Positions 9,031-38,806 of a stretch of DNA of 60,577 bases are shown piece by piece. Below the pieces are notes generated by a model that was given only the letters and a program-made list of their open reading frames with translations, made no database searches and was not told the DNA's origin. A program made the translations under genes and the position numbers. Source of the DNA: a candidate division GN15 bacterium (GTDB lineage: Bacteria > Zixibacteria > MSB-5A5 > GN15 > FEB-12); contig WJMS01000257.1 of NCBI GenBank assembly GCA_014727815.1, positions 1 to 60,577 of the forward strand, given 5' to 3'. Every line of letters starts with the position of its first letter. Within the stretch, counting starts at the first letter, position 1.

Positions 9031-9903
9031 TCAGGAGGGCTCCACCCCGGTACTCACCCGGGTGCGCTCGTCGATATACTCGCCGATCGTCACAAACCGG
9101 AAATCACTGAGCAGCCGGTTGAGCTTGTACGCGAAAATGTCGGTCGAGCCGTACGTCCGAAACCACTGCACCGGCGACAACCCCTCCACCTGCGGCGGGT
9201 TCGGATCGAGCTCCCACGGGTGCAGGTAGATCATCGACGGCCGCCCGTCGTCGTTGAGCTTGCGAATCATCTGCCGGGAATACCAGTACGGCGAATGGCG
9301 CAGGTAGCCGCCACCCGACACCGGCACGTTGCGCCCCATCAACCGATAGGTCGAATTGGGAAACTCGTACAGCTCCCGGCCGTTGGTGCACTGCATGCTG
9401 AACAGCTCACGCGGACCGCTCGGCATGCCGTACAGATCGTGCTTGATCGGGAAGATCGAACTGTCGTACTCGAAACCAAGCTCGGCAAGCACATCAAACG
9501 CCCACGCCACCCGGTTGTTGATCGACCAGCTCGGCGCCCGGTAGCCCCGAGGCATCACCCCGGTCGCATTGTAGATCGCGTCGACCGCCCTTTGCGTATC
9601 CTCCCGGAACGTCTCCGGCGTCATCTGGTCGACTCGCCGGTGCCAGTACGAGTGACAGGCAATCTCGTGCCCCAGCGCCGCTATCTCCTCGATAATGACC
9701 GGGTGGTGCTCGGCGCACCAACCGAGAATGAACCAGGTCGCCTTGACCTGCTTCTCATGAAACAGCGACAACAGGCGCCGCACGTTGACCGCCAGGGTCG
9801 ACGGCAGCGTTTGCCACGTTTCCTGGGGATAACGCTCGCGCAGGATCTCGACCACAAACCACTCTTCGAGATCGACCGTAAGTAGATTTCGTTGCGCCTG
9901 CAT
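9031..9903 (-). CDS. polysaccharide deacetylase (DUF3473-type, EPS-locus associated)
   Basis: N-terminus LLTVDLEEWF and HEIACHSYWH-type His motifs are typical of NodB-like deacetylases found in XrtA/EPS loci (family recalled from memory). Confidence 0.8.
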   Translation of the reverse strand: MQAQRNLLTVDLEEWFVVEILRERYPQETWQTLPSTLAVNVRRLLSLFHEKQVKATWFILGWCAEHHPVIIEEIAALGHEIACHSYWHRRVDQMTPETFREDTQRAVDAIYNATGVMPRGYRAPSWSINNRVAWAFDVLAELGFEYDSSIFPIKHDLYGMPSGPRELFSMQCTNGRELYEFPNSTYRLMGRNVPVSGGGYLRHSPYWYSRQMIRKLNDDGRPSMIYLHPWELDPNPPQVEGLSPVQWFRTYGSTDIFAYKLNRLLSDFRFVTIGEYIDERTRVSTGVEPS

Positions 9904-9920
9904 GATCGGTATGGGCCGGC

Positions 9921-10751
9921 TCAGTTAGAGATGGAGTTGCCTTTGAGTTTCGGGCCCTCGGATGATTTCTTGGCCGAGGAACCCGACCCCGAAGATTGCG
10001 GCGACTCGTTTTTGTTCGCCCGCTTCTTCTCGGCATGCTTGTTCGCCCGCTGCTCCGCCCGGGAGGGGGCGTAGTTGTATCCGTAGTATTTGTAGTCGTA
10101 GTAGTACGGCAGGGTGTTGTTGGCGTTGTTGAGCACCACCCCGAGAATCTCGGTCTTGTTGCTGCGCATGATATCAACCGCCCGGGTGGCGACATCGCGC
10201 GAGGTCTGCCCCGCTCGAACCACCATCAAAACCCCGTCCACCTCCGGCGCCAGAAGCATCGGATCGGAAACCGGGATGATCGGCGCACAGTCGACAATGA
10301 TCAGGTCATAGTAAAACTTCATCTCCGTCAGCAACCGACCGATCGCCGGGGCATCAAACACCTCGGCCGCTTCCGCGGTCGGCCGCCCGGCGGTGATCAG
10401 ATCGAGATGCTCCAGGGGTGATTTGCGAACGACATTCTTGCCGATCAGACCGTTCTCCAGCACCCCGGTCAGACCGGGCTCGCGATCGACATTAAACAGC
10501 TTGTGAACGGTCGGCCGACGCAGGTCGGTGTCGACCAGCAGCGTCTTGATCCCCTTCTTTGCCGCCGTTATCGACATCAACGCACAGATCGTCGACTTGC
10601 CCTCGGAGAGATTGGCCGACGTGATCATGACCACCTTCAGTTCATGACCGGCGTCATGACGCTTCAGCCGCTGCAATAACCGACGGAACTCGGTGGCAAA
10701 GGGGCTCTCCAGGCTGTAGTAATCAATGATCGACAAGCTGCCTTTTTTCAT
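9921..10751 (-). CDS. BY-type protein tyrosine autokinase (CpsD/CapB-like, cytoplasmic, stand-alone)
   Basis: Walker A SANLSEGKST, Walker A' LLVDTDLRRP and Walker B DLIIVDCAP. C-terminal tyrosine cluster YYYDYKYYGYNY. Confidence 0.85.
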   Translation of the reverse strand: MKKGSLSIIDYYSLESPFATEFRRLLQRLKRHDAGHELKVVMITSANLSEGKSTICALMSITAAKKGIKTLLVDTDLRRPTVHKLFNVDREPGLTGVLENGLIGKNVVRKSPLEHLDLITAGRPTAEAAEVFDAPAIGRLLTEMKFYYDLIIVDCAPIIPVSDPMLLAPEVDGVLMVVRAGQTSRDVATRAVDIMRSNKTEILGVVLNNANNTLPYYYDYKYYGYNYAPSRAEQRANKHAEKKRANKNESPQSSGSGSSAKKSSEGPKLKGNSISN

Positions 10752-10758
10752 CGAGGCG

Positions 10759-11880
10759 TCAGCCTTTCTCCGTTATGCGACCGAGGGTCGCACAGATGTG
10801 TTCGTAGACCGTCTCGGTTTCCGACAACGCCGCCTGGGCCCGGCGCAGCGACGGGTTGATCTCGGTCGTCTTGCGGTAGTTCTCGATCGCCTTCTGCCAG
10901 GCCATCTTGGCCTGCTCGAGATAACACTGCGACAACTCTGCATACAAATCAACGTACGTCGGGTTCTTATTAATCTCAGCCTTCAAAAAGGCGATCCGAT
11001 CCGCGATCGCCCGCTCGGTCATCCAGCCCGGCACCAGCAAAAAGCGCGTGTGGAAGGCTGCAAATTCTTTACGCGTCGCTTCCCGCTTGGTTTCACGAAT
11101 CGTCTTGAGGGTCGTCAACGCCTCGCGCAACTCGCCGCGATGCAGCGCCTCGATCGCACTGTCATAGCGCGGCCCCCGGTAATCTTCATAGATCAGCGCG
11201 GCCTTCTTCAGGTAGTCCGTGATCTGGTTCGAGCGCGCCGGCCACTTGTCGCGGTTCGGCTCCCGAATCGCCTGCACGATATACGCCAGGGCCAGGTTGA
11301 AATAGGCATCGCCGTAGTACATATTGATCGCGATCGCCTCGGAAAACTGCTCGATCGCTCCCCGAAAATCATCAACCGCCAGCAACGCCTCCCCGTAGTT
11401 GTTGCGGTAGTCCGCAAACCGCGGCCGCATCGACACCGCCCGCTTGCCCGAATGCACCGCCTCGTCGGGATTGTTCAGCGCCAGCTCGGTAATCGTAAGG
11501 AAATTGTAGGCCTGGTGATGCTCGGTGCCGGTCGACGCCGTCTGGTAAAACAACTCGCGCGCCTCGGCATAAAACCCCTTGAAATAAAACGCCGTGCCCA
11601 GATGATACATCGTGTCCGGCTCGGCCGACTGGATCGCCTGGCGGTACGCCGTCAAAAGCGATTCGATCTCTTTCTTCTTCTCTCCATGACTGCTCTTGAC
11701 CAGCGTCAGCACTTCCTCGGGATCGATCTGCTGGGGGTGCGGACGGGTCACCCGCTCGGCCACCACCCCGTTGATGTAGATGGTGGTGGACACCGACCCG
11801 AGATTCGCGTCATTGGCGGTCTGGATGAGATACTCGCTTTCGTTCTCACGAAGCTTGCTGCTCAGTCGGTACGTTTCCAT
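10759..11880 (-). CDS. cytoplasmic TPR-repeat protein of unknown function
   Basis: 373 aa with no signal peptide or TM. Several TPR-like repeats (AFYFKGFYAEARELFYQ, AYFNLALAYI). Lies between the Wza-like and BY-kinase genes. Confidence 0.7.
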   Translation of the reverse strand: METYRLSSKLRENESEYLIQTANDANLGSVSTTIYINGVVAERVTRPHPQQIDPEEVLTLVKSSHGEKKKEIESLLTAYRQAIQSAEPDTMYHLGTAFYFKGFYAEARELFYQTASTGTEHHQAYNFLTITELALNNPDEAVHSGKRAVSMRPRFADYRNNYGEALLAVDDFRGAIEQFSEAIAINMYYGDAYFNLALAYIVQAIREPNRDKWPARSNQITDYLKKAALIYEDYRGPRYDSAIEALHRGELREALTTLKTIRETKREATRKEFAAFHTRFLLVPGWMTERAIADRIAFLKAEINKNPTYVDLYAELSQCYLEQAKMAWQKAIENYRKTTEINPSLRRAQAALSETETVYEHICATLGRITEKG

Positions 11881-11938
11881 CTCTCTCCTGCTCTACACTG
11901 CGACGTCACTCGCCTTGGTCACGGCCGCCGGCCGGGTC

Positions 11939-12955
11939 CTATGGCGCTGCAGCTCCCCCGGTATCCTCATCACCGGCCACCCGGTCGTAAATCAGCAGAA
12001 AGGTCGTTACCAATCCCGCCGCGGCGCCGATTATCGGCAGGGTCGTGGTCAGGAAGGACGATCGGCGTTCCGGGATATAAATTGCGTCTTCCTTACGCAG
12101 AATATAACGGCTCGGCACACCCGAGGCCGTGTACTTCTCCAGATTGAAGTGCAGCGACTGGGCGTAGTAGCTGTCCTTGGTCACCACCCGGGTCTTCTCG
12201 ATATCGGCCCCGGTCGACGGTCCCCCGGCCAGCGCGATCGCCTCGAGCACGTCCAGGTCTTCCTCGAACTGAATCGGCCCCGGCGAGTTTACCGAGCCCA
12301 TCACATAAATCACGTTGCGTTTCTCGGTCGTTCGCCCCAGCTCCTGCGAGGGCATCCCCATGACCGTCTGCGGAATCTCGACTCGATCCTGGCGCTCCAG
12401 GTCGGGAAGGTCTTTGAGTTGCCCCGATGCAATCGCCTCGGCCACATTGACCACTTCGATCGAACCGGCATCGTCACCGGCCCCGCGAATAATCGTCACC
12501 CGGGTCAGGTCGGCCGACTGGGTCGGACCGCCCGCCTCGTTGATCACCGACCAGAGATCGGGGATAGCCTCAAACGAGTACTTCCCCGGCGAGTTGACCT
12601 GACCGGTCACGTACACAAATCGATAATTGTACTCCATCACCCGCACCACTGCCTGCGAGATGGCGCGGTTGAGGCTGGAGATGCGACGGATGATGTCATC
12701 CTGGATCTCTTCGGTCGTCTTGCCGGCGACATTGACTTTGCCAATGATGTCGAGGGTGATGCTGCCGTCGAGCGCCACCCGTACCTGAGCGTTGAAATCG
12801 GGCTCCTGCCAGAATCGGATTTCGAGCACATCACCGGGGCCCACCCGATACTGCTCCTGGGCCGATACCGGAACGCTGAGGGCAAGCACCAGACAGACCG
12901 CCGCCAGGGTCGCGCTCGCAAGGGAATGGTGTCTACGGAACATATCTCGTTTCAT
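11939..12955 (-). CDS. polysaccharide export protein (Wza/EpsE-like, Poly_export + SLBB)
   Basis: Signal peptide after ATG 12955 (MKRDMFRRHHSLASATLAAVCLVLALSVPVSAQ). YRVGPGDVLEIRFWQEPDFN...GKVNVAGKTTEEIQ fits Poly_export. C-terminal TM helix present. Confidence 0.85.
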   Translation of the reverse strand: MKRDMFRRHHSLASATLAAVCLVLALSVPVSAQEQYRVGPGDVLEIRFWQEPDFNAQVRVALDGSITLDIIGKVNVAGKTTEEIQDDIIRRISSLNRAISQAVVRVMEYNYRFVYVTGQVNSPGKYSFEAIPDLWSVINEAGGPTQSADLTRVTIIRGAGDDAGSIEVVNVAEAIASGQLKDLPDLERQDRVEIPQTVMGMPSQELGRTTEKRNVIYVMGSVNSPGPIQFEEDLDVLEAIALAGGPSTGADIEKTRVVTKDSYYAQSLHFNLEKYTASGVPSRYILRKEDAIYIPERRSSFLTTTLPIIGAAAGLVTTFLLIYDRVAGDEDTGGAAAP

Positions 12956-13013
12956 AGCTAAAACCGCTTGTATTAAGAGAATCGGCAAATTACCGGGCTT
13001 CCTTAGAGCGATC

Positions 13014-13042
13014 AATATAGACCCCTCCTGATTGGGTGTAAA
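13014..13042 (-). promoter_or_regulatory. candidate sigma-70 promoter of the EPS export operon
   Basis: Minus strand: TTTACA-17 nt-TATATT, ~50 nt upstream of ATG 12955. Confidence 0.45.
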
Positions 13043-13043
13043 C

Positions 13044-13070
13044 AAAAAACACGGGAGGGCGCCCGGGGTT
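13044..13070 (-). terminator. possible intrinsic terminator after the GGDEF gene
   Basis: Minus strand: CCCCGGGCGCCCTCCCGTGTTTTTTG. A short GC stem (CGGG/CCCG) is followed by a T6 run. The stem is weak. Confidence 0.35.
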
Positions 13071-13075
13071 TCAGG

Positions 13076-14725
13076 CTATTTGACGGTCATGCCCTCTTGG
13101 TAGACCAGGAAGCTGTTTCGGCCCGCCTCCTTGGCCGTCAGCAGGGCCATGTCGGCGGCGTATATCAATCCCTTCTGGTCGGTGGCATGGTCGGGAAAGA
13201 CCGCCGCCCCCTGCGAGATTGTGCAGGCGATCACCCGGCTGTCTTCGTGCAGGTGGAATCGCGAGCTGGCTATCTTCTCGCAAAGACGAGCCATGAAACG
13301 CTGGGCGGTGGCCTGGTCGGCCTCGGGCATGATCACGCAGAACTCATCGCCTCCATATCGGGCAACAATATCGATGGCGCGAATCGAGTTGCGCAACATC
13401 TGGCCCAACCGTCGAAGCACCTGGTCACCGGACAGATGACCAAACTGGTCGTTGATCCCCTTGAGATCGTCCAGGTCGAATATGATCAACGCCAGGGAGC
13501 GCTGGTAGCGATGGGCGCGGTTGATCTCCTCCTGCAGCCGCTTGGTGAAGTAGCGCTGATTCGCCAGACCGGTCAGGTTGTCGGTAAACGAGAGCGCCTG
13601 GACCTTCTCGTACGACTCGGCATTCTGCACCAGCTCGAGCGCGGTCGGCACCAGCTGCTCCATGTGCTGGGCAATACTCTCCGGTTTCAGGTTCCCGTCG
13701 AGCAGCAACACCCCGCTGCGGCCGGAACTGATCGGAAACGCCGCCAGGAAGTCTATCCCCTCTCGCTTGAGGGACTGCGCCCAGTCGGCCAGTGAATCAT
13801 CAAGCTGAGCCAGCCGGCTCACCTCCCGGACACCCGAACCGGACAGCCCCGCTACCGCCCGGTCGAATACCTCGCGCGAAGGCACCGCCGGTCCTTTGCC
13901 ACCCGACGGATTGTAGTGCCGCAGCGGTTCGTTTTTTTCTTTCGGTTCGTAGATATAGGCTACCCGGTTCAAATTCAGCTCGCTGCGGATGCTGTCGATC
14001 AGCTTGGGCACGAGCGTGGCCGGGGTGCGATGCCGAACCAGTTTGAGAATGCCGAGCGGCGAGCGCGATGGTTCCACGGTCCGCCCGGCCGATCCGGGGG
14101 CAGACTGCATTGCATCGAGCTTGCGCGAGAGGCGCTCGAATCGCGTTTCATGCCACTTGACATGATAGGCCGCCGAAAGCGTCTGGGCCAGGCTGGCCAA
14201 CAACAGCGACAACACCGTTTCATCCGACTCACTCCGGCACTGCACAAAGTACAACCCGTACAGATTGGTGCGCCAGAAAACCGGAAAGAAACGATCGAAA
14301 CCATCGCGTTTCAGTCGCTCGTATACCCGGACAGGGACATGACTCTCGATCTCGGCCAACGGCCTCGGCTGATAGCGCTGACGGAGGAATTCGGTCAACT
14401 CGGACGTGTGCCGCACGCGAAACTCGCTGCGCTGAAAGCGGCGGATACCATGGTAGTAGTTGAGTTCGAGAAAAGCGCGTTGCTTGCGCAGGAAGACAAT
14501 CCGCTCGCACCCGAGCGGCCCCTTGAGCAGATCGGACACCGTACTGGCGACCGCCTGGATCTCCCCCCGAGCGGCATTGTCGGACAACAGCGACATGTAC
14601 CGGTCAGGCTCGAACGCCGGCGGCAACGCGGCTGACGAACCTCGCCGACTGTTTCGAATCAGGATGCCAATGAGGACGATTACCAGGGCCGACAACAGGA
14701 TGATGGCGGCAACTTGGATATCCAT
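13076..14725 (-). CDS. membrane-anchored diguanylate cyclase (GAF-like region + GGDEF)
   Basis: N-terminal TM helix. C-terminal GGDEF domain with intact RYGGDEFCVIM, and the RxxD I-site RAID five residues upstream. Confidence 0.9.
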   Translation of the reverse strand: MDIQVAAIILLSALVIVLIGILIRNSRRGSSAALPPAFEPDRYMSLLSDNAARGEIQAVASTVSDLLKGPLGCERIVFLRKQRAFLELNYYHGIRRFQRSEFRVRHTSELTEFLRQRYQPRPLAEIESHVPVRVYERLKRDGFDRFFPVFWRTNLYGLYFVQCRSESDETVLSLLLASLAQTLSAAYHVKWHETRFERLSRKLDAMQSAPGSAGRTVEPSRSPLGILKLVRHRTPATLVPKLIDSIRSELNLNRVAYIYEPKEKNEPLRHYNPSGGKGPAVPSREVFDRAVAGLSGSGVREVSRLAQLDDSLADWAQSLKREGIDFLAAFPISSGRSGVLLLDGNLKPESIAQHMEQLVPTALELVQNAESYEKVQALSFTDNLTGLANQRYFTKRLQEEINRAHRYQRSLALIIFDLDDLKGINDQFGHLSGDQVLRRLGQMLRNSIRAIDIVARYGGDEFCVIMPEADQATAQRFMARLCEKIASSRFHLHEDSRVIACTISQGAAVFPDHATDQKGLIYAADMALLTAKEAGRNSFLVYQEGMTVK

Positions 14726-14760
14726 GCGACACGTTCTCCCGGGGAGAAGGTTACCTCCTC

Positions 14761-14788
14761 AATGTAGGAATTGTCGGGGGAATGTCAA
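14761..14788 (-). promoter_or_regulatory. candidate sigma-70 promoter of the GGDEF gene
   Basis: Minus strand: TTGACA-16 nt-TACATT, ending ~35 nt upstream of ATG 14725. Confidence 0.5.
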
Positions 14789-14801
14789 CAAAAACAACGA
14801 C

Positions 14802-15032
14802 TTACAGGCGATTGCGAGCGTACCGAAAACGCGCCCGGCGCGACAACAGGCGATGCCGCTTGAGGATTCGCCAGACCTGCCACCAGCCCACCGTCACCCG
14901 CACGGCGCGCTGATTGATCTCCCGCTTCATCTCCCCGATCGTCGCAAAAGGATCGTAACGGACCATCTGCAAAACGACAATCTCCGGATCATCGCTGGAG
15001 AAATCTTCCTCCCCGGCCTGATCGCCGGGCAT
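14802..15032 (-). CDS. small hypothetical protein, possible helix-turn-helix
   Basis: 76 aa with an acidic N-terminus. The segment TIGEMKREINQRAVRVTVGWWQVWRILKRHRL resembles HTH segments of transposase and regulator N-termini. Codon third positions are GC-rich like neighbouring genes. Not certain to be real. Confidence 0.35.
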   Translation of the reverse strand: MPGDQAGEEDFSSDDPEIVVLQMVRYDPFATIGEMKREINQRAVRVTVGWWQVWRILKRHRLLSRRARFRYARNRL

Positions 15033-15082
15033 ATGATGGGTGGGGGTGGTACTGGACTGCGGCGCGACTTTGTCAACGACCG

Positions 15083-15487
15083 TTACGGTTTCCGCGACCC
15101 GGTCTTTTTTTTTCCGCCGCCCGATGAGCCGGCTTCCTGGAAGTTGGCCCGGGCATCATCAACCGACCGGTACGACTTGAGGACATTGTCGAACTCGAGC
15201 AGTTCGTAGATCTCATAGACATTCGGAATCATCCCGGCCAGCTTGATATCGCCGCCGTTGCTGCGGACGTCGCGGATGTGGGAAATGAATATACCCCAGC
15301 CGGCCGAGGAAATGTAATCGACACCGGCCAGATCGATCACGATCTTGTAGCGCTCCCGCTTGATCAGCGAATCGATCACTTCCTCCAGCTCGGAGGCGGT
15401 CAGGGTATCGATGACCCCGTCGATACGGACCTCGGACACCGCTTTGTCCTGACCCGATTCCAATAACGATATGCTGATATTGTCCAT
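15083..15487 (-). CDS. STAS-domain anti-sigma-factor antagonist (SpoIIAA/RsbV-like)
   Basis: DLAGVDYISSAGWGIFIS contains the conserved phosphorylatable Ser context. The ATG at 15487 (MDNISISLL) is preferred over the tracked start at 15535. Confidence 0.85.
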   Translation of the reverse strand: MDNISISLLESGQDKAVSEVRIDGVIDTLTASELEEVIDSLIKRERYKIVIDLAGVDYISSAGWGIFISHIRDVRSNGGDIKLAGMIPNVYEIYELLEFDNVLKSYRSVDDARANFQEAGSSGGGKKKTGSRKP

Positions 15488-15534
15488 GACAAGTATATGA
15501 TAAGTTCGTCCTGCAGTACCGCACCCATTTAACA

Positions 15535-15563
15535 ATATCGGCAGGAATCAGGCAAGAACTTTA
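15535..15563 (-). promoter_or_regulatory. sigma-28/SigD-like element upstream of the STAS gene
   Basis: Minus strand: TAAAGTT...GCCGATAT. The -10 matches the SigD consensus GCCGATAT, but the TAAA to -10 spacer is 17 nt against a canonical 15. The -35 overlaps the upstream stop codon. Confidence 0.3.
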
Positions 15564-17636
15564 TTCATCGCCGTCCTGAGGAGACGAGGACGCCGATGAA
15601 TCGGTGGATCGGTATGTCTGCGAATCGATTACCGCCCGACCAGCCGGCTCCTGATGTTTCTCCGACGAGCTTTTCCGACCTTCGGTCCGGGCCAGGATGA
15701 ACGTGATATCATCGTTTTGCTTGGCAAATCCGGAGAACGCATCCAGTTCCTCGACAATCCCCGCGGCGAGCTTCGAGAGCTGGATCGCCTCGTCACCCAC
15801 CAGTTGCTGCTGTAAAAACTCGACCAGCCGACCCATCCCGTACTGGTTGCCGTCGCGATCGGTCGCCTCCGTGATGCCGTCCGTATACACCAGGAACAGG
15901 TCGTTTTCGTCCAGTTCCACCGAGACCTCCTCGAGGCCACTGCCGAAATCACGGTCGAGCGTCACCGGCACCCCCAGCGGCATACCGGTCGGATTCAACG
16001 TCTTGAGCTGCCCGCTCTTCGCCTGGTAGTAAATCATCGGGTTGTGCCCCGCCGAGACGAACGTCAGGCGGCTCGCCGACGTGTCATAAATCGCCAGCAG
16101 CACCGTGATGAACATCCCCGGCGGAATATTGGCCTTCAAATAGTCGTCCACCGCCAGCATGACCTGCTTGGCCGACCGGGCGCCGACCGCATGAATCTGA
16201 ATGACCGTCCGAAGCATCGACATCACCAGCGACGCCGGCACACCCTTCCCGGACACATCGGCCACCACCAGACAAAAACGACCGTCACCGATCTCAAAGA
16301 CATCGTACAGGTCACCCCCGACCACCGAGGCGGCCCGGTAGTAGGCATCGAGCTGAAGCCCCGGTATCGCCGGCAACTGTACCGGCAGCAGCGTCTTCTG
16401 AATCTGTGAGGCCACCTCGATCTCCTTGGCCATCTTCTCCCGCTCGATGATGTTCCGACGGTCTTTGCTCAGCCGGGTCATCATGTCATTGAGAGCGCGG
16501 GCAATCTCGAAAAACTCGTCGGCGCCCTCGAGCGGAAGCTCCGTTTCAAGGTCACCTGATGTAAACCGTCTCACTCGATGCGTGATCTTGGCGATCGGCT
16601 TGACGAAGTAGTTCGACAAGAGATAAATGCCGAGAATACCAACCAGCAGCAGCAGACCGGTAAACATGATAATCCGCTTACGCACCGCCGCGAGTTTCTC
16701 ATCAACCGGCTCCGACGAGTAGACCGTATGCACCCGCCCGAAAAAGCGCGGTCCGGCCCGGATGTTCAGCGCCAGGTAGTTCAACTTACTCTGCGTCGTA
16801 TCGAGCGATTGGTGTACCCCGATCAACTGCGGATCGATCTCATTCGGCGCCTGGTACGGCTTCCGAATGTTCGAGATGTCACCCGAGTGCGCCCGAATCA
16901 AACCGGTGCTGTCGGTCAACACCACCAGCTTGAGCGTCGGGTTGGCCCGCGTGTAACTGACAATCAATTCGTCAAACTCGACATCGGAACGCGAGTTGAT
17001 ATAGTACCCCGCCGCCTGGTCGGCAATCGTCGAACTGAGCGCCCAGACCATGTCCTCGAGATGCCCCCGCACCTCCATCTTGGTGCGCCGGTCGACGAAA
17101 TAAAATGCCGCGGCAATGATGAGACTGACAATGAGGAAGGTGAAAAACGAGAACTTCGCCCGAAGCGTGAACATGCGGCGAAGCAGCGGCGGCGTGTCGG
17201 TCGCCGACAACCCGCGTATCCGCTTGAGCATCCGAAGCTCATTGAACCCGGCCGCCGAGATATACTCGACCGAATCCATGATCTTGCTGATCATGTAAAA
17301 GCCGAGCCCACCCTTGCGGCCCGACTCGACCAGCTTCTCGAGGTCGATCTTCCCGGTCTGCTCCGGATGAAAAGACCGCCCCGAATCGATCAGCGAAAAC
17401 GCAATGATCTTGCGGTAGACGACAATGCGCAGGCGAAGCGTGCCCTTTTCGTACAGGTAGGCGTGACGGATGATATTGGTCGCGCCCTCTTCGATCGCCA
17501 GCAGCACCGCCGTCACGTCCCGGCGCGACATCCCGGCCGCCGTGCACGCCTCCTTGACGATCCGCTGGATCGAATCGAGATACCGCTCCTCGGCGACAAA
17601 CTCGGCGTTGATTTCCTTGATCGGGCGGCGGAACAT
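15561..17636 (-). CDS. fused RsbW-type Ser kinase / 2-TM sensor / HAMP / PP2C (SpoIIE) phosphatase
   Basis: The N-terminal ~140 aa look like an anti-sigma HATPase (LLAIEEGATNIIRHAY...IDSGRSF...GGLGFYMI). Two TM helices flank ~140 aa, followed by a HAMP-like segment. PP2C motifs GGDLYDVF, VVADVSGKGVPASL, VYTDGITEA and DDITFIL are present. Confidence 0.9.
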   Translation of the reverse strand: MFRRPIKEINAEFVAEERYLDSIQRIVKEACTAAGMSRRDVTAVLLAIEEGATNIIRHAYLYEKGTLRLRIVVYRKIIAFSLIDSGRSFHPEQTGKIDLEKLVESGRKGGLGFYMISKIMDSVEYISAAGFNELRMLKRIRGLSATDTPPLLRRMFTLRAKFSFFTFLIVSLIIAAAFYFVDRRTKMEVRGHLEDMVWALSSTIADQAAGYYINSRSDVEFDELIVSYTRANPTLKLVVLTDSTGLIRAHSGDISNIRKPYQAPNEIDPQLIGVHQSLDTTQSKLNYLALNIRAGPRFFGRVHTVYSSEPVDEKLAAVRKRIIMFTGLLLLVGILGIYLLSNYFVKPIAKITHRVRRFTSGDLETELPLEGADEFFEIARALNDMMTRLSKDRRNIIEREKMAKEIEVASQIQKTLLPVQLPAIPGLQLDAYYRAASVVGGDLYDVFEIGDGRFCLVVADVSGKGVPASLVMSMLRTVIQIHAVGARSAKQVMLAVDDYLKANIPPGMFITVLLAIYDTSASRLTFVSAGHNPMIYYQAKSGQLKTLNPTGMPLGVPVTLDRDFGSGLEEVSVELDENDLFLVYTDGITEATDRDGNQYGMGRLVEFLQQQLVGDEAIQLSKLAAGIVEELDAFSGFAKQNDDITFILARTEGRKSSSEKHQEPAGRAVIDSQTYRSTDSSASSSPQDGDE

Positions 17637-17697: not shown

Positions 17698-19527
17698 CTA
17701 CTCCGACTGCTCGGACTTCAGCCGCAGCCGAGCCTGCTCAATATTGTTCTTGGTGGCCTCGTTGTTCGGGAAGACCTCCAGCACCTGCTCCCAGGCCTCG
17801 ATCGCATGCTGGTACTCCTGGTTGCGCATGTGCCGAATCCCCTCCAGGTACAACGGCCAGATATCCGGGTTGGCCTGCAAATCTTCGAGCGTCGATGGTT
17901 TCGCCAGCGCCGACGAGATCCGGTTGAGATAATCCTGGGCGACCGCATTCGAGGGATCCGTGCGCAACACCGAACGGAACCGCTGGCGGGCCTGCTGGTA
18001 ACGCCCGCGCTGGAACAGATCGATCGCCAGCTGCAACTGCTGCGCCGCGTCAAGACCGGTCAGCGCCCGTTGACGGGCCTGCTGCGCCTCATCGTTGTCC
18101 GGATCCAGTTCCAGCACCCGGTTGTACGCTTCAATAGCATCAACCGTCCGGCCGTCCTCCCGCGCTGCCCGCGCCTCCGACAGCTTCTTCGACACCTCCG
18201 CCTCGGTGATCATCTGGATCTCACTGTTCATCGCCAGCGCCCGAATATTCCGCGGATCGATATCAAGCACGAGCTGCAGCATATCCTCGGCGGCTGCGTA
18301 GTACTTCTTGTTCTTGAACGACTCCGCCTGGGCGAGATAGCGCTCAACAAACTGCTGGATCTCCTGCTCCGCCATCTCCAGCTTGCGCGCCTGCTTCTCC
18401 TTCTGCTCCAATTCCTGTTCGATCGAACTGATCGTCCGGGCAATCTCCTGATTGTCCGGATCGAGCGTCAGCACCTGGCGGTAGTAATGCAGCGCCGAGT
18501 CAAGTTCGAGCACATGGAAGAACTCCGATGCCTTGTCGGTCAGCTCCATGATCCGCAACTCCCGCTCGGTCGGTGGCGGCGGTGGCGGCGGCGGCTCATA
18601 CGTCGGCTTCTCCGCAAACCGTTCCGCACTCGGCGCCCCGAGCAGGAACGACAGCGAAAAACGATGGCTGTCCTCGATATAATCCATCAGCTTGTAGGCA
18701 TAGTCGATCTGGATCGGCCCCGCCCGCAAACCGGCCCCAAAAGCCAGGTTGTCCCGGTCATACCCCATCCGAAGGGCATACCGGTCGTAAAACTTCAACT
18801 CGCCCCCCGCATGCACTTTCAGATCGCGGTCGGCAAAATGCTCTACATCAACGCCCGCGCTGACCTTCAGCGGCGCCACCAGGCGAATGTCACGCAAAGC
18901 CATCCCCCCGACAATTGCACGCGGAACTTCCTCGGTCGATGCTTCCAGCTTGAGATTCGGCTGCACCAAATCCCGGGCCGTCACACCCAACGACACATGA
19001 TCGTGCAGATCAACCAGCACCCCCACATCGGCCCCAACCGCCCAGTCGGAGAACGTATCCAGCGACTGATTGACCGCCTTGAAACTGGCGCCAACCGAAA
19101 ACGTCCCGCTCAGCCGTCGGCCGTACGAGAAGATCGCCTGCGAGGTCGAGTAGTCGAACTCCCCCGTCGTGGCGCCGTCAACCCGGCGGATAATCTCATC
19201 GGTGCCGATCCGCATGAAACTGAAGCCGATACCATCGTTACGCGAAATCGGGTAGGCCCAGGTTCCGCTGTTGTAAAGCGTCCCCTCGAACAGCGTTGTG
19301 TGCAGAAGTGAAACCTCGTGAAAATCGAGTCGGGACAAACCGGCCGGATTGTAAAACACCGTCGATGCATCGTCGGCCGTCGCGGTAAACGCCGCCCCCA
19401 TACCGAGCGCCCGACCACCCGTGCCGAGACTGAACAACGATTCCCGACCGGCATCCTGCGCCGAACCGACAACCGGCACAAACAGCATGAAAGCCAAAAC
19501 CACTATGAGCAGGCGATGACCCATCAT
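17698..19527 (-). CDS. FadL/PorV-like outer-membrane beta-barrel fused through a poly-Pro linker to a TPR array
   Basis: Signal peptide MMGHRLLIVVLAFMLFVPVVGSAQD. GRALGMGAAFTATADDASTVFYNPAGLS is a FadL/PorV-type signature, with alternating beta-strand pattern to ~aa 330. Then PPPPPPPP and at least 7 TPRs. ATG at 19527 abuts the upstream stop. Confidence 0.75.
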   Translation of the reverse strand: MMGHRLLIVVLAFMLFVPVVGSAQDAGRESLFSLGTGGRALGMGAAFTATADDASTVFYNPAGLSRLDFHEVSLLHTTLFEGTLYNSGTWAYPISRNDGIGFSFMRIGTDEIIRRVDGATTGEFDYSTSQAIFSYGRRLSGTFSVGASFKAVNQSLDTFSDWAVGADVGVLVDLHDHVSLGVTARDLVQPNLKLEASTEEVPRAIVGGMALRDIRLVAPLKVSAGVDVEHFADRDLKVHAGGELKFYDRYALRMGYDRDNLAFGAGLRAGPIQIDYAYKLMDYIEDSHRFSLSFLLGAPSAERFAEKPTYEPPPPPPPPTERELRIMELTDKASEFFHVLELDSALHYYRQVLTLDPDNQEIARTISSIEQELEQKEKQARKLEMAEQEIQQFVERYLAQAESFKNKKYYAAAEDMLQLVLDIDPRNIRALAMNSEIQMITEAEVSKKLSEARAAREDGRTVDAIEAYNRVLELDPDNDEAQQARQRALTGLDAAQQLQLAIDLFQRGRYQQARQRFRSVLRTDPSNAVAQDYLNRISSALAKPSTLEDLQANPDIWPLYLEGIRHMRNQEYQHAIEAWEQVLEVFPNNEATKNNIEQARLRLKSEQSE

Positions 19528-22500
19528 TTCACCACCGCCACTTTCAGGAGCTTCTGGTCGCCGTTGATCACCGTGCGCAACAAGGCGATATACACGCCGT
19601 TCAGCACCGTATGCCCCTCGCCGTTGCGACCGTCCCACTCCAGCACATGACTGCCCGCGTCGGTACCGGCCTCACCGAGCGACCGCTCGATGCTGTACAC
19701 TTCTTCCCCGGTCAGCGTCAGGATCCTGAACTGAATCGGCGTCGCCTCGGCCAGCTCGTACGAGAAGACCGCCGGTTCGTAATCGGGGTTAAACGGGTTA
19801 TCCCGAATCGTCAGCGACTGCGCTCCCGCAGACACCGCCGTGATATTCTGTGAGAAAATCGAACCGTCAGGACTGCCCGGCGTCATCGCGCCGGTCGACT
19901 CACCGGCAAAGGGACCGGCCAGGTACGTCGAGACAATATCGTCGGCGGTGAACTCGATCCGGAAATCATCCGGCGCGCCCGACTTGATTCGCGCCCGGAA
20001 CGTCAAAAAGCGCTGCTCCCCCTCATCGATCACGTAATTGTCGAACGTCATGATCAAACGCTCGGTCCCGGCGGTGGCGGTAGTGACTATCTGTCCGCCC
20101 TCGGCGAAACCGGTCGCCGATGTTTCCACTATCGACCGCACCGACACCGGTTGCCCGCTGCGATCGACAAACGACATGCCGATCTGTTCGATCTCGATCG
20201 GCGAGCGCGCCGACAAACCGCGATTGGTAAGATAGAGTGTGAAGATCTCGGCATCTCGACCGCGCGCCACCAGATTGCCCGGCTGCGCTTCGCTCTCGAC
20301 AACCAGGTCCGACTGCATCGAGGACACCTGCACCCGGAGCGTACAGGCGGTGAAATTTATCTGGGCCGGATCACCGGTGTTCAACGCCATCGGCGTCTCG
20401 AGCAGCTCAAACGCAACCGTCGCCAGCGTATCGAAATCAGGCGCCGTCAAAATGAAACTTATCGAACTGTCGGCATCGATCTCGCCCAGCGTCGGATCTG
20501 CAACCCCGAGGTTCAGCCCGAATGTCGACATGGAATAGTCCGAGGTCACCACCTCGCCCTGCCCCTCATTCGAGAGCGAGGCCACCAGGGCAAACCGCTC
20601 GCCAACCCCGACATAGTCCGCGTCGAGTCCGGCAAACTCACACGTCAATACCAGGCTGGCCGGCGTCTGCACCGTCACCAGCGCTTCATTGTCCACCGGC
20701 TCCAGCACCTCGGCCCCGGTCGACAGTACCTCGACCGTAAACGTCTCCGCCAGGTTTGATACGACCGAAGCCGTTACCGGGATCATCACGTCAATCGTGT
20801 CATACGCCGGAATACTGCCGACCATGACCGTGTCCTGGGATGGCTGAGACTGGCCGTTGGTTGCAATGACCACCTCGACGTCGGTTGCCTCGCGATCGGC
20901 CAGGTTGGCTACCCTGGCCGTAACTTCGAACTGCTGGTTGGTGTTGACGAACGGTGCATTTGGCACCCCCGTGATCTCCGTCTCGACCAGCTGGATGGCG
21001 ATCGGCGTCAGTATCTCGATCTGCTGTCCGGCAAACGATGTCTCCAGCCGAGCTGAGTTGCCCAACCCGATCTCACGATACGAAACCACCGCTTCGGCCG
21101 TCAACGTGTCCGGCGCCAGCTCGGCGGGAATCTGGATCGGATCGGCCGTCAGCAGGTTGATACCCGGGTTGAGCGTGCCGTTCTCTGCGCGAAGACTGAC
21201 CGTCGTTGAGAACGTACTGTCCACCACGCTGAACGTCGTGCGCGAGCCGACCAACTCCACCGGCTCGTCTCCGTCGAGCGAAACCTCGAACTCAAACGAC
21301 ACCGTCGCCCCACTGACCAACGAGGTAGGTGTCAGCGTCGTGTCGAGCGAACTGAGCGCCGGCGGCTGCTTGAGCAGCATCGAGTCAGCCACGACATTCT
21401 TGATAATGGTCGGCGGCGCGCCGGAATAAACGGCATAGTCAAACTCCACCCGATACCAGCCCGAGTCGATCAGCACCGTCCCTCCCGGAATGGCAATATT
21501 GCGGTACTGCAGGATATCCGGCTGCGGCTGGGTGTAACTGGGCGTGCCGGAAAACAGGGTCGAGACTACCGTCCCGGCCGGGTCACGCACCAGGCGAATC
21601 GTCACCGGGGTGCTGTCGATATCGGTAACCACCGACTCCGCCCGCACGTCAAAGCCCAGCGTAAAATCAAGCCCGGTGTAGATACTGTCGGGCGAGACCG
21701 TGCCCGGGATGATCGTCAGCGATGGTGTCGGCAGGATCGAAACCGGGATCAGCAGCGTGTCGGCCGTGCTGTATACGGAATCACCCAGACTGAACCCCGA
21801 CATCAACTCGACCAGCAGCGTATCCTCACGCGGGGCCCCGGTGACCTCCGGAAGCAGCACCGAGACAGTATCGACCCGGCCGTTGTTCTGCCCATCGAAA
21901 AAGACCTTTACCGAGCCGCCACCCGACGTGAAATAGGTCCGGATCCAGGGATCCTCCGCCGGTAACAGCGAACCGTTGTTTTGAACGGGGACCGTGATCG
22001 AGGTCGGCACACCGGCGAATATCTGGGAAATCGAACTGCCGTCGGTGAAAAAGGCGCCGAGAATATCATAGCCGTTGAACGAGACAACGGTCGCATTGGA
22101 CGCGAGTGTATCGGCAAGCGCCGTGATATCTACCACCGCCGAAGGCCCCCGGTAGGTCACGCCAAGCGGCAGGAGATTGATCAGGCCGTTGCTGAAAAGT
22201 GACTGGTCATCGACTGTATCAGGTGTCAATTCACCCGCACTGGGAACCAACACCAGGGGCGAATCGACCAGACTATAGTCGGCCACCGGATCATCGTTTT
22301 CGTCAAACAGACGGATACGGGCATCGCCGCGCAGAGGATGACCCACCACCTGATTTGGATTGATAATCAAATCAATAGTAGTCAGGTCCTCGGTGCCGCC
22401 AGGCGTGGCGGTATCGGCATACACGGACAGTCCACCGATCGCGAGGACAAAAACGGCAAGTATGTAGATACAGTATTTCAGCGGTTGCACGAGGTATCTC

Positions 22501-38730: not shown

Positions 38731-38777
38731 CTCACCATCCAGTTAAAGGGTTCCTTCCTATATGTCCCTATATAGTG

Positions 38778-38806
38778 CTATCGTCCGATTTGTCGCACTC
38801 CTTTAG
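38778..38806 (-). promoter_or_regulatory. sigma-28-like promoter upstream of flgM
   Basis: Minus strand: CTAAAGGAGTGCGACAAATCGGACGATAG. That is TAAA-16 nt-GACGATAG, 6/8 to GCCGATAA, ~47 nt upstream of the flgM start. Confidence 0.4.

What the first reader, a model, noticed from the sequence alone, without database searches (positions are those of the whole stretch)
13076..17636. Sigma-less partner-switching module coupled to a diguanylate cyclase (HsbR/HsbA/HsbD-like logic) beside a flagellar regulon
Seen in the sequence:
- 15561..17636 encodes an RsbW-type HATPase, two TM helices, a HAMP segment and a PP2C domain.
- 15083..15487 encodes a STAS protein with a phosphorylatable Ser in DYISSAGWG.
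- 13076..14725 encodes a TM, GAF-like and GGDEF protein with an intact GGDEF and the RAID I-site.
- The three genes are co-oriented, and no sigma factor or classical anti-sigma target gene lies in the block.

Established knowledge: in Pseudomonas aeruginosa, the HptB-HsbR-HsbA pathway uses one protein with both PP2C and kinase domains. It toggles the STAS protein HsbA between the anti-sigma-28 factor FlgM and the diguanylate cyclase HsbD.

Inference: this block may be a differently built version of that motility/biofilm switch. It has a membrane sensor instead of a receiver domain, and the kinase is N-terminal. A flgM gene (38383..38730) and sigma-28-type promoters sit in the same window.
Basis: partly seen in the sequence, partly recalled or inferred. 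Interest (0 to 1): 0.7.

Follow-up and report, generated by a model that had tools for sequence, protein, structure and literature searches.

The report
Fused kinase-phosphatase switch with recoded STAS
A Zixibacteria genome carries a conserved phosphorylation switch next to a c-di-GMP synthase and slime-export genes, and the switch's small target protein appears to be made in a short and a long form through a conserved slippery run of nine A's, which nobody has described.

Summary
The three genes exist as described, all on the minus strand, and their catalytic motifs are intact. They are an RsbW-type kinase fused to TM, periplasmic sensor, TM, HAMP and PP2C (15561-17636); a STAS protein with acceptor Ser61 (15083-15487); and a TM, 2x GAF-like, GGDEF cyclase with an RxxD I-site (13076-14725).

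The gene order is kept in about 45 Zixibacteria/GN15 species. The flagellar/FlgM link is not supported. The claimed flgM matches no profile and lies 21 kb away behind housekeeping genes. The conserved neighbours are a PorV-like/TPR outer-membrane protein and Wza/Wzc-type polysaccharide export genes. SiaABCD and SypE/SypA are closer analogues than HsbR/HsbA/HsbD.

The 76-aa ORF between STAS and GGDEF is really a C-terminal domain of STAS. It is fused in-frame in distant relatives, but here it sits in the -1 frame behind an A9 tract. That tract (A9-A11) is present in 45 of 45 loci analysed, with frames -1:34, 0:6 and +1:5, and it is identical in nine independent same-species assemblies. This points to programmed slippage giving 134-aa and 228-aa isoforms.

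The cyclase has its own conserved sigma-70-type promoter and is absent from several distant relatives, so it is a plausible output but not a proven one.

Verdict: new variant of a known kind; interest 0.6.

The parts
17698..19638 (-). PorV/PorQ-family outer-membrane beta-barrel fused to TPR repeats. It is the conserved gene immediately upstream of the kinase-phosphatase.
   Evidence: NCBIfam PorV_fam scores 112.5 bits against a cutoff of 90, plus TPR Pfam hits. Orthologues lie directly upstream of the kinase-phosphatase in the Zixibacteria loci. The same holds in distant relatives L058, L061, L062 and L066, at 31-36% identity over full length.
15561..17636 (-). 691-aa bifunctional membrane protein. 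Domains: RsbW-type Ser kinase (17223-17600), TM1, periplasmic Cache-like region (16674-17081), TM2, HAMP (16467-16622), PP2C phosphatase (15684-16286).
   Evidence: Pfam hits; motif alignments to RsbW, Rv1364c and SiaA; hydropathy. sCache_3_2 is detected in homologues. About 100 of the best 150 50%-identity cluster representatives share the full architecture.
15083..15487 (-). Zero-frame STAS ORF (134 aa). The acceptor Ser61 codon is at 15305-15307.
   Evidence: STAS PF01740, E 8e-18. Aligned to TM1442, SpoIIAA and RsbV structures with the Ser conserved. 65-79% identical in 45 species.
15105..15113 (-). A9 slippery tract (GGA AAA AAA AAG, an in-phase A_AAA_AAG heptamer), 7 codons before the STAS stop. 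Proposed site of a -1 shift or an extra A in the mRNA.
   Evidence: It is the only A/T run of 8 or more in the 60.6-kb window. An A9-A11 tract sits at the same place in 45 of 45 loci analysed. 46 of the 51 A/T runs of 9 or more in 891 kb of relatives are at this site. The tract is identical in 6 + 3 independent same-species assemblies.
14802..15104 (-). The -1 frame continuation of STAS: a linker with a conserved T(R/K)(L/V)TV(V)D-type motif, then a three-helix, Arg-rich C-terminal domain. It is annotated in public records as a separate 76-aa hypothetical protein (14802-15032). The conceptual long isoform is 228 aa.
   Evidence: 40-58% identical in relatives. One in-frame ORF with STAS in 6 Zixibacteria loci and in L059, L061, L062 and L066. 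The conserved motif follows directly after the tract, and 28 of 45 loci have no in-frame ATG before the domain. AF2 predicts a three-helix bundle, pLDDT 68. Foldseek gives only weak HTH/winged-helix matches. No Pfam or PDB sequence match. Conceptual product computed.
14761..14788 (-). Sigma-70-type promoter (TTGACA-16-TACATT) between the STAS C-terminal domain stop and the cyclase start.
   Evidence: Best promoter-like match of the region, 10 of 12. TTTT-N2-TTGACA-N16-TATATT is conserved 0-47 nt after the stop in 37 loci.
13076..14725 (-). 549-aa diguanylate cyclase: TM helix, two GAF-like domains (14102-14608 and 13592-14053), coiled-coil helix, GGDEF domain (13115-13588) with GGDEF A-site and RAID I-site.
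9031..13045 (-). Downstream polysaccharide genes on the same strand: Wza-type export protein (11939-13045), TPR protein (10759-11880), BY-type tyrosine autokinase (9921-10751), XrtA-system polysaccharide deacetylase (9031-9903).
   Evidence: Pfam and NCBIfam hits (TIGR03006 scores 315 bits against a cutoff of 276). The order is conserved in relatives. A TPR protein of 365-390 aa follows the long STAS in the distant relatives.

Best explanation
SHOWN BY SEQUENCE
A single inner-membrane protein carries a cytoplasmic RsbW-type serine kinase at its N-terminus. After a periplasmic Cache-like loop between two TM helices and a HAMP domain, it carries a cytoplasmic PP2C phosphatase. The next gene encodes a STAS protein with the canonical acceptor Ser61.

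The STAS ORF stops 7 codons after an A9 tract. The -1 frame then continues for about 100 codons into a conserved three-helix, arginine-rich domain. In distant relatives that domain is simply the C-terminus of the STAS protein. A conserved sigma-70-type promoter follows, then a TM, GAF, GAF, GGDEF cyclase with I-site, then Wza/Wzc-type polysaccharide export genes.

INFERRED MECHANISM
1. A periplasmic signal shifts the balance between the kinase and phosphatase activities of the one protein.
2. That balance sets the phosphorylation state of STAS Ser61.
3. RNA-polymerase slippage (one extra A) or -1 ribosomal slippage on A_AAA_AAG makes a fixed fraction of a 228-aa STAS-linker-CTD isoform beside the 134-aa STAS-only isoform.
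4. One phospho-state of STAS binds an effector and changes surface or biofilm behaviour without a sigma factor.

The most likely effector is the neighbouring cyclase, as SiaC activates SiaD and HsbA-P binds HsbD. c-di-GMP would then drive the adjacent polysaccharide export machinery. The C-terminal domain supplies a second, still unknown contact (DNA, membrane or protein).
For: - Domains and catalytic motifs.
- The cyclase is intact and its fold was modelled.
- Gene order folD, large surface protein, PorV/TPR, kinase-phosphatase, STAS, CTD, GGDEF, Wza, TPR, BY-kinase, deacetylase is kept in about 40-45 of 56 species-level loci at only 40-70% protein identity.
- An orthologous cyclase (34% identity over full length) directly follows the kinase-phosphatase in L058, and another GGDEF gene lies nearby in L066.
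- Recoding, tract conservation: the A9-A11 tract is in 45 of 45 loci, although the Lys codon bias is AAG:AAA = 170:49.
- Recoding, frames: -1 in 34 loci, 0 in 6 and +1 in 5.
- Recoding, coding signal: a conserved peptide motif starts 3-5 codons after the tract in the shifted frame, at a constant 44-51 residues before the DPF motif.
- Recoding, shift site: in three loci the shifted frame opens only inside the tract.
- Recoding, ancestral state: four distant relatives have one continuous ORF with no A9-A11 tract; three have no A run of 6 or more, and L066 has an in-frame A7 at the equivalent linker position.
- Recoding, reproducibility: the same out-of-frame tract length appears in 6 and in 3 independent assemblies of two species.
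- Recoding, product size: the conceptual +1A product is 228 aa, the same length as the naturally in-frame ORFs in L002 and L048.
- Precedents: poly-A slippage giving two functional length variants of TssM (PMC4256274); A runs longer than 7 and A_AAA_AAG as recoding signals (PMC3711429); STAS-like proteins controlling cyclases (PMC8457831, PMC5085249, PMC7647112).
Against: - There are no experimental data and no complex modelling.
- The cyclase has its own conserved promoter. It is absent next to the module in L059, L061, L062 and L064.
- In L058 the cyclase follows the kinase-phosphatase with no STAS gene between them.
- The window protein's own periplasmic region does not reach a Pfam threshold; only homologues do.
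- The C-terminal domain model is of moderate confidence, and its structural matches have E>=0.4.
- No significant RNA structure lies downstream of the tract (z = 0.28), and no Rfam match was found.
- Eleven species are in frame 0 or +1, so the product ratio cannot be uniform.
- Two loci (L006 confirmed by ORF listing, L055 inferred from missing hits) lose synteny right after the kinase-phosphatase.
Confidence: 0.55

Rival explanations
1. The switch does not act through the cyclase. The output is carried by the STAS C-terminal domain or by the other conserved neighbours (PorV-like/TPR protein, the 373-aa TPR protein, Wza/Wzc export machinery). The parallel is SypA, which controls Syp polysaccharide by an unknown, non-sigma route. 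The cyclase would be a later, lineage-specific insertion that is regulated separately.
For: - The core PorV/TPR, kinase-phosphatase, long STAS, TPR protein is conserved at 30-42% kinase-phosphatase identity without a cyclase in L059, L061 and L062.
- The cyclase has its own conserved promoter.
- The C-terminal domain is under clear purifying selection.
- Its model resembles HTH domains.
- Some kinase-phosphatase homologues carry a C-terminal HTH_28 domain.
- The SypE/SypA precedent sits inside a polysaccharide locus (PMC4517449).
Against: - Cyclase adjacency recurs in three separate lineages: the core clade, L058 and L066.
- The HTH assignment is statistically weak.
- No operator-like conserved element was seen around the downstream promoter.
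- The C-terminal domain shows no profile similarity to the HTH_28 of the homologues.
Confidence: 0.3
2. One reading: an HsbR/HsbA/HsbD-like motility-biofilm toggle in which the STAS protein alternates between the anti-sigma-28 factor FlgM and the cyclase.
For: - A flagellar gene cluster (flgF to fliS) lies at 38.8-57.2 kb.
- ORF 38383-38730 has a C-terminal stretch (KLEQIRLKILSGFYQNRDVIDTIADRL) that looks FlgM-like to me.
- HsbA binds both FlgM and HsbD in P. aeruginosa (PMC5085249).
Against: - The ORF matches no FlgM profile, even at E<=1.
- It is 21 kb away, with eight housekeeping genes between it and the module.
- The architecture differs: no receiver domain, no Hpt gene in the block, and the kinase is N-terminal.
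- The neighbours conserved across relatives are envelope and polysaccharide genes.
Confidence: 0.1
3. The frame break at the A tract is not programmed recoding. Either it is DNA-level phase variation (slipped-strand mispairing switching the C-terminal domain on and off), or it is decay or assembly error, with the C-terminal domain translated independently or not at all.
For: - Poly-A tracts are also slippery for DNA polymerase (PMC3711429).
- All three frames occur among species.
- The window ORF has its own ATG at 15032.
- Some assemblies are long-read based.
Against: - Tract length and frame are identical in nine independent assemblies of two species, from different samples and pipelines.
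- 34 of 45 loci are shifted in the same direction, across MEGAHIT, SPAdes and long-read assemblies.
- The domain and the motif directly after the tract are conserved in the shifted frame.
- 28 of 45 loci have no ATG, and the window shows no Shine-Dalgarno sequence before its ATG.
- Decay would not preserve an A9-A11 tract against codon bias in 45 species.
Confidence: 0.15
4. A classical partner switch: the N-terminal RsbW-type domain sequesters a sigma factor encoded elsewhere, and unphosphorylated STAS releases it.
For: The kinase domain is closest to anti-sigma-B factor RsbW (NCBIfam E 6e-16; PDB 6M36).
Against: - No sigma factor gene is in the conserved block in any of about 60 loci examined with the window's own proteins or with precomputed Pfam tables.
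- The kinase is tethered to the membrane as part of a 691-aa protein.
Confidence: 0.1

Closest known systems
SiaABCD of Pseudomonas aeruginosa (PMC7647112, PMC8457831)
   Same: - A membrane protein with two TM helices, HAMP and PP2C; SiaA is the best NCBIfam match for residues 317-649 (E 8e-19).
- A partner kinase.
- A small phosphoprotein with an anti-sigma-antagonist fold.
- A co-located GGDEF cyclase with I-site.
- Sigma-independent output onto biofilm and aggregation.
   Different: - Here the kinase is fused to the N-terminus of the phosphatase protein.
- The phosphoprotein is a canonical STAS (PF01740) with an acceptor Ser. In the paper, SiaC is phosphorylated on Thr68.
- The cyclase has TM + two GAF-like domains rather than SiaD's small N-domain + stalk.
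- Scores are far below the SiaA and SiaD equivalog cutoffs (67.6 vs 700; 149.6 vs 290).
- SiaD is co-transcribed with siaABC (PMC7278518); here the cyclase has its own promoter.
- The recoded C-terminal domain has no counterpart.
SypE/SypA of Vibrio fischeri (PMC4517449, PMC10120452)
   Same: - One protein with both serine kinase and serine phosphatase activity acting on one Ser of a single-domain STAS protein. The N-terminal kinase, C-terminal PP2C order is from my own knowledge.
- The genes sit inside a polysaccharide (syp) locus.
- The target of the STAS protein is not a known sigma factor.
   Different: - SypE is cytoplasmic, with a central receiver domain controlled by a phosphorelay. Here the middle of the protein is TM, periplasmic sensor, TM, HAMP.
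- No cyclase is adjacent in syp.
- SypA has no C-terminal extension or frameshift.
HptB-HsbR-HsbA-HsbD of Pseudomonas aeruginosa (PMC5085249, PMC6482189)
   Same: - Kinase and PP2C are on one polypeptide.
- The STAS protein has an acceptor Ser.
- A GGDEF cyclase is encoded nearby, and it binds the STAS protein in a phospho-dependent way.
   Different: - HsbR has receiver, PP2C, kinase order (my knowledge) and is fed by Hpt. Here there is no receiver domain or Hpt, and the kinase comes first.
- The Hsb genes are embedded in a flagellar locus and HsbA also binds FlgM. Here the flagellar genes are 21 kb away and the FlgM candidate is unverified.
Programmed transcriptional realignment or -1 frameshifting at poly-A tracts (tssM of Citrobacter rodentium, PMC4256274; dnaX, IS elements, PMC3711429)
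   Same: - An A9-A11 tract or A_AAA_AAG heptamer shortly before a stop codon.
- A conserved downstream ORF in another frame.
- Two length variants sharing an N-terminus are expected.
- In-frame orthologues that keep the tract also exist, as in Yersinia tssM3.
   Different: - It is a new gene family for this mechanism: a STAS signalling protein.
- It is conserved across about 45 species of one phylum.
- No product or mRNA data exist.
- No stimulatory RNA structure was detected.

Membership tests
Partner-switching system (RsbU/RsbV/RsbW type) | STAS (anti-sigma antagonist) protein with a conserved phosphorylatable Ser/Thr | tested here: met
   PF01740, E 8e-18. TIGR00377 scores 63.8 bits against a cutoff of 53.45. 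Ser61 aligns with the Ser of the conserved D-S motif in SpoIIAA and TM1442.
Partner-switching system (RsbU/RsbV/RsbW type) | GHKL-type serine kinase (HATPase_c_2) with N, G1 and G2 boxes | tested here: met
   PF13581, E 2.7e-20. E50/N54, DSG and GGLGFY align to RsbW 6M36.
Partner-switching system (RsbU/RsbV/RsbW type) | PP2C (SpoIIE-family) phosphatase with metal-binding aspartates | tested here: met
   PF07228, E 1.9e-43. All four Asp motifs align to Rv1364c and SiaA.
Partner-switching system (RsbU/RsbV/RsbW type) | A sigma factor sequestered by the kinase | tested here: not met
   No sigma factor gene is in the block or in the conserved neighbourhood of relatives. A distant sigma partner cannot be excluded with these tools.
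HptB-HsbR-HsbA-HsbD pathway | Receiver domain on the kinase/phosphatase protein, fed by an Hpt protein | tested here: not met
   The 691-aa protein has no Response_reg hit, and no Hpt gene is among the scanned neighbours.
HptB-HsbR-HsbA-HsbD pathway | STAS protein switches between FlgM and the cyclase; genes embedded in a flagellar locus | tested here: not met
   The locus part was tested. The module sits in an envelope/polysaccharide block and the FlgM candidate matches no profile. The protein-protein interactions are not testable here.
SiaABCD system | SiaA equivalog (TM-HAMP-PP2C) and SiaD equivalog scores above the NCBIfam cutoffs | tested here: not met
   SiaA scores 67.6 bits against a cutoff of 700. 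SiaD scores 149.6 bits against a cutoff of 290. This is an architectural resemblance only.
SiaABCD system | Separate SiaB kinase and SiaC-type phosphoprotein (Thr acceptor) | tested here: not met
   The kinase is fused to the phosphatase protein. The phosphoprotein is a canonical STAS with a Ser acceptor. SiaC Thr68 is from PMC7647112.
SypE/SypA system | One protein with serine kinase and PP2C phosphatase activity, separated by a receiver domain | tested here: inconclusive
   Both catalytic domains are on one protein in N-to-C order kinase then PP2C. However, the central module is TM, sensor, TM, HAMP rather than a receiver domain. No sequence comparison with SypE was run.
SypE/SypA system | Encoded within a polysaccharide biosynthesis/export locus | tested here: met
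   Wza-type, BY-kinase and XrtA-type deacetylase genes lie directly downstream, and the order is conserved.
Programmed recoding at a poly-A tract (transcriptional realignment or -1 ribosomal frameshift) | Slippery tract conserved at nucleotide level at the frame junction | tested here: met
   A9-A11 in 45 of 45 loci. It is the only such run in the window, and it persists against an AAG codon bias of 170:49.
Programmed recoding at a poly-A tract (transcriptional realignment or -1 ribosomal frameshift) | Downstream frame encodes a conserved polypeptide contiguous with the upstream one | tested here: met
   A conserved motif and domain sit in the shifted frame. In-frame fusions occur in 6 close and 4 distant relatives.
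Programmed recoding at a poly-A tract (transcriptional realignment or -1 ribosomal frameshift) | Two protein products, or heterogeneous mRNA from a homogeneous gene | not testable with these tools
   Only the genomic consensus is available. That consensus is stable in nine independent assemblies.
Active diguanylate cyclase (GGDEF, PF00990) | GG(D/E)EF active site, metal/GTP-binding residues and RxxD I-site | tested here: met
   RYGGDEFC, D417/D419, N425, D434 and R449-A-I-D452 are invariant in 45 orthologues.

The most novel reading that the evidence does not exclude
A phylum-wide programmed slippage site inside an anti-sigma-antagonist-type STAS gene makes two isoforms at a set ratio. One is a bare STAS domain. 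The other is STAS tethered to an HTH-like, Arg-rich effector domain. Both would be substrates of the same membrane kinase/phosphatase. The partner switch would then have two outputs (for example cyclase control and DNA or envelope-protein binding), and their balance would be set by recoding rather than by transcription. That layer has not been described for any partner-switching system.
Probability: 0.35. Interest if true: 0.8.

Novelty: new variant of a known kind. Interest (0 to 1): 0.6.

Why it matters
Partner switches that act on something other than a sigma factor are known from only a few proteobacterial cases: Sia, Hsb, Syp and Btr. This cassette shows a compact version is widespread in an uncultured phylum, with kinase, extracytoplasmic sensor and phosphatase on one membrane protein. 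It is conserved next to envelope and polysaccharide genes and often next to a cyclase.

The A-tract is a strong candidate for a new conserved recoding family in a signalling gene. It would be directly testable in E. coli reporters. It would also explain why public annotation splits the gene into a STAS protein and an orphan 'hypothetical protein'.

If both isoforms are functional, it gives a simple system to ask how the stoichiometry of STAS partners tunes a switch.

Tried and rejected
- FlgM identity of 38383-38730: Pfam at E<=1 and NCBIfam gave nothing. It is kept only as an unverified candidate.
- Homology of the C-terminal domain to known families: only a sub-threshold HTH_Tnp_Tc3_2 hit (E 1.6e-3, 19 bits against a cutoff of 31.5). 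The PDB profile search gave no hits. hhalign against the HTH_28-bearing homologue P0127 found no similarity. Foldseek matches all have E>=0.4.
- A stimulatory RNA structure for -1 frameshifting: the fold of 15040-15135 is no better than shuffles (z = 0.28), and there is no Rfam match.
- An operator near the conserved promoter: the spacer and flanks are not conserved beyond -35, -10 and an upstream TTTT.
- Population variation in tract length: nine same-species assemblies showed none. The one 1-nt indel seen lies in the intergenic region, not in the tract.
- Independent initiation of the 76-aa ORF: rejected. The conserved coding signal starts at the tract, most species lack an ATG, and the window's ATG has no Shine-Dalgarno sequence.
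- Complex prediction of STAS with the cyclase or with FlgM was not possible with the available tools.

Full report
**1. What is there**

The window is a contig of a candidate division GN15/Zixibacteria MAG. The 691-aa protein is 100% identical to an NCBI entry from a 60,577-bp contig. All genes of the finding are on the minus strand.

Gene 15561-17636 (691 aa):
- Pfam finds HATPase_c_2 at residues 13-138, HAMP at 339-390 and SpoIIE/PP2C at 451-651.
- Hydropathy gives two membrane segments, at about 155-183 and 316-348. That leaves a loop of about 135 residues outside the membrane.
- In many homologues this loop is recognised as sCache_3_2.
- The kinase N, G1 and G2 boxes align to RsbW.
- The four PP2C aspartate motifs align to Rv1364c and SiaA.

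Gene 15083-15487 (134 aa):
- It is a STAS protein.
- Ser61 in DYISSAGWG aligns with the Ser of the conserved D-S motif of SpoIIAA and TM1442. That Ser is their phospho-acceptor by my own knowledge.

Gene 13076-14725 (549 aa):
- It is a GGDEF protein.
- The GGDEF and RxxD motifs and the metal/GTP residues are invariant in 45 orthologues.
- A confident AF2 model (pLDDT 84.9) shows a TM helix, two alpha/beta domains, a long helix and the GGDEF domain.
- The best structural matches are GAF/PHY-GGDEF and GAF-GGDEF cyclases.

**2. Context**

No sigma or anti-sigma gene lies among the neighbours scanned.

Upstream of the module:
- A PorV/PorQ-like barrel fused to TPR repeats (17698-19638).
- A 1004-aa protein with a FlgD_ig-like tail.

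Downstream of the module:
- A Wza-type exporter.
- A TPR protein.
- A BY-type tyrosine kinase.
- An XrtA-system polysaccharide deacetylase.

Further upstream lie folD, ymdB, rny, pheST and thrS. The flagellar genes start only at about 38.8 kb.

The proposed flgM (38383-38730) matches no FlgM model, even at E<=1. Only its C-terminal motif looks FlgM-like to me.

**3. Conservation**

A scan of one genome per species returned 56 related loci, all Zixibacteria-type MAGs.

tblastn with the window's proteins shows this order in about 40-45 of them:
- folD, large surface protein, PorV/TPR, kinase-phosphatase, STAS, small ORF, GGDEF, Wza, an extra gene in about half the loci, TPR, BY-kinase, deacetylase.
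- Protein identities are only 40-70%.

Two loci lose synteny right after the kinase-phosphatase. L006 was confirmed by ORF listing and L055 is inferred from missing hits.

The kinase-first architecture is common beyond this clade:
- About 100 of the best 150 50%-identity cluster representatives match over residues 1-650.
- Some carry extra C-terminal HTH_28, TPR or triple-STAS regions.

Neighbourhoods of six distant members (30-42% identity) are as follows:

| Locus | What follows or surrounds the kinase-phosphatase |
|---|---|
| L059, L061, L062, L066 | PorV/TPR protein, kinase-phosphatase, a long STAS of 216-236 aa; a TPR protein of 365-390 aa follows directly (L061, L066), after an interposed ParA-like gene before the STAS (L062), or after Wza/Wzz (L059) |
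| L058 | A full-length orthologue of the cyclase directly follows the kinase-phosphatase, with no STAS gene between |
| L066 | A different GGDEF gene lies two genes away |
| L059, L061, L062, L064 | No cyclase nearby |
| L064/L065 | No STAS gene follows the kinase-phosphatase; hrcA, grpE and dnaK come next |

Linkage to a cyclase is therefore recurrent but not universal.

**4. The missed fourth part**

The 357-bp 'gap' between STAS and GGDEF holds a 76-aa ORF (14802-15032). It is conserved at 40-58% identity.

Fusion state:
- In six Zixibacteria loci, and in all four distant relatives that have a STAS gene, this sequence is the C-terminus of the STAS protein in one ORF.
- In the window it is in the -1 frame.
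- That frame is open from about 15155 and overlaps the STAS ORF by 73 nt.
- The overlap contains GGC GGA AAA AAA AAG ACC, which is an A9 run and an in-phase A_AAA_AAG heptamer.
- Reading on in the -1 frame gives KKKDRVAETVTVVDK. This is homologous to KKKDPALTRVTVVDS of the in-frame proteins.
- With one extra A, the product is 228 aa. That is the length of the natural in-frame ORFs in L002 and L048.

Conservation of the tract:
- All 45 loci that could be analysed have an A9-A11 run at this spot.
- The frames are -1 in 34 loci, 0 in 6 and +1 in 5.
- The run is the only A/T homopolymer of 8 or more in the window.
- It accounts for 46 of the 51 runs of 9 or more in 891 kb of relatives.
- Lys codons in this genome are AAG:AAA = 170:49.

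Evidence that the shifted frame is translated from the tract:
- A T(R/K)(L/V)TV(V)D-type motif follows the run within 3-5 codons.
- The distance from the run to the DPF motif is a constant 44-51 residues.
- 28 of 45 loci have no in-frame ATG between the tract and the domain.
- In three loci the shifted frame is closed by a TAA made of T plus the first two A's, so the shift has to occur inside the run.

Other points:
- Three of the four distant relatives have no A run of 6 or more in this gene. L066 has only an in-frame A7 at the equivalent linker position.
- Six independent assemblies of the window's closest relative all have A9 in the -1 frame. Three assemblies of another species all have A10 in the -1 frame.
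- This argues against assembly error and against visible DNA-level phase variation.
- No stimulatory RNA fold or Rfam element was found.

Known biology fits. A runs longer than 7 cause RNA-polymerase slippage, and A_AAA_AAG causes -1 ribosomal frameshifting (PMC3711429). In tssM, a poly-A tract yields two length variants and both are needed (PMC4256274).

The domain itself:
- It has no Pfam or PDB sequence match.
- Public records hold it only as small hypothetical proteins of Zixibacteria.
- Its model is a three-helix bundle with a disordered Arg-rich tail, pLDDT 68.
- Structural matches are consistently HTH or winged-helix domains, but none is significant.

**5. Transcription**

A canonical TTGACA-N16-TATATT promoter with an upstream TTTT sits 0-47 nt after the C-terminal domain stop in 37 loci. 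In the window it is at 14788-14761.

The cyclase is therefore expressed from its own promoter. Any control by the switch would be post-translational. That is how SiaC and HsbA act on their cyclases (PMC8457831, PMC5085249).

**6. Mechanism and rivals**

The most likely reading has four steps:
1. A periplasmic signal sets the kinase/phosphatase balance of one membrane protein.
2. That balance sets the phospho-state of STAS Ser61.
3. Slippage at the A tract supplies a short and a long STAS isoform.
4. One phospho-state binds an effector without a sigma factor.

The neighbouring cyclase is the best candidate for the effector. The adjacent polysaccharide export genes are the likely physiological output.

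The main rival is that the output runs through the C-terminal domain or through the conserved TPR, PorV-like or export proteins, with the cyclase as a later addition. I give this 0.3. I give the FlgM toggle about 0.1. Phase variation or decay at the tract gets about 0.15. A remote sigma factor gets about 0.1.

**7. Comparison and novelty**

The module passes the three enzymatic and structural tests of a partner-switching system. It fails the sigma-factor test within the locus.

It is not a member of the Sia, Hsb or Syp families. Scores lie far below the equivalog cutoffs, there is no receiver domain or Hpt, and the STAS is canonical. It does share logic with all three, most closely with SiaABCD (a membrane HAMP-PP2C plus a cyclase) and SypE/SypA (a bifunctional enzyme in a polysaccharide locus).

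No paper in the library mentions this system. A search for Zixibacteria together with STAS found nothing relevant.

I rate it a new variant of a known kind, with interest 0.6. The value lies mainly in the conserved recoding site and the recurrent architecture, both of which can be tested directly.

Noticed in passing
window 15105-15113 and 14802-15104 (minus strand); L001-L054: An A9-A11 tract is conserved at the 3' end of the STAS gene in 45 of 45 relatives. It links STAS, mostly in the -1 frame, to a conserved C-terminal domain that public annotation lists as a separate hypothetical protein. This is a candidate for programmed slippage.
   Followed up: yes
window 14761-14788 (minus strand); 37 related loci: A near-consensus sigma-70 promoter (TTTT-N2-TTGACA-N16-TATATT) is conserved directly upstream of the cyclase gene. 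This is notable for a phylum whose promoters have not been studied.
   Followed up: partly
window 17698-19638 and 19524-22538 (minus strand): A PorV/PorQ-like barrel fused to about 300 residues of TPR, and a 1004-aa protein with a FlgD_ig-like C-terminal tail that overlaps it by 115 bp. Both are conserved upstream of the kinase-phosphatase, even in relatives at 30-40% identity. Their relation to the switch is unknown.
   Followed up: partly
P0127, P0131, P0132, P0141, P0149 (relatives of the 691-aa protein): The kinase, sensor, PP2C architecture occurs with extra C-terminal modules: HTH_28, long TPR regions, or three STAS domains on the same polypeptide (a fully fused partner switch).
   Followed up: partly
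L006 12000-16500; L055: In two species, synteny appears to stop immediately after the kinase-phosphatase gene. In L006 an enoyl-CoA hydratase, an antiporter and an ABC ATPase follow. L055 was inferred only from missing tblastn hits. The cause could be a rearrangement or a chimeric assembly.
   Followed up: no
window 11939-13045 vs relatives (e.g. L009 15647-17204; L059 12118-13611): About half of the relatives have an extra gene of about 1.5 kb between the Wza-type gene and the TPR gene. In L059 it is a Wzz/GNVR chain-length protein. The window and its closest relatives lack it, so the 276-aa BY-kinase here has no adjacent membrane partner.
   Followed up: no
window 12955-13045 (minus strand): The mechanical Wza ORF starts at a TTG. 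A signal-peptide-like sequence begins at the internal MKRDMF, about 30 codons in. A promoter-like site (TTTACA-17-TATATT, 13042-13014) lies in the extension, so the real start is probably downstream.
   Followed up: no
window 38383-39278 and 51658-52143 (minus strand): There are two FlgN-like genes: a strong match at 51658-52143 next to flgK and a weak one at 38823-39278 next to fliS. The 115-aa ORF at 38383-38730 has a FlgM-like C-terminal motif but matches no profile. An HDOD protein follows at 37458-38363.
   Followed up: partly
window 44642-47356 (minus strand): A 904-aa glycosyltransferase-family-2 protein with many TPR repeats sits between the flagellin gene and flgL. It could be involved in flagellin glycosylation.
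   Followed up: no
window 57778-59151 (plus strand) and 33703-33776 (minus strand): A 457-aa protein with a Por_Secre_tail (type IX secretion sorting domain) lies beside the flagellar rod genes. The window has a single tRNA gene, downstream of thrS.
   Followed up: no
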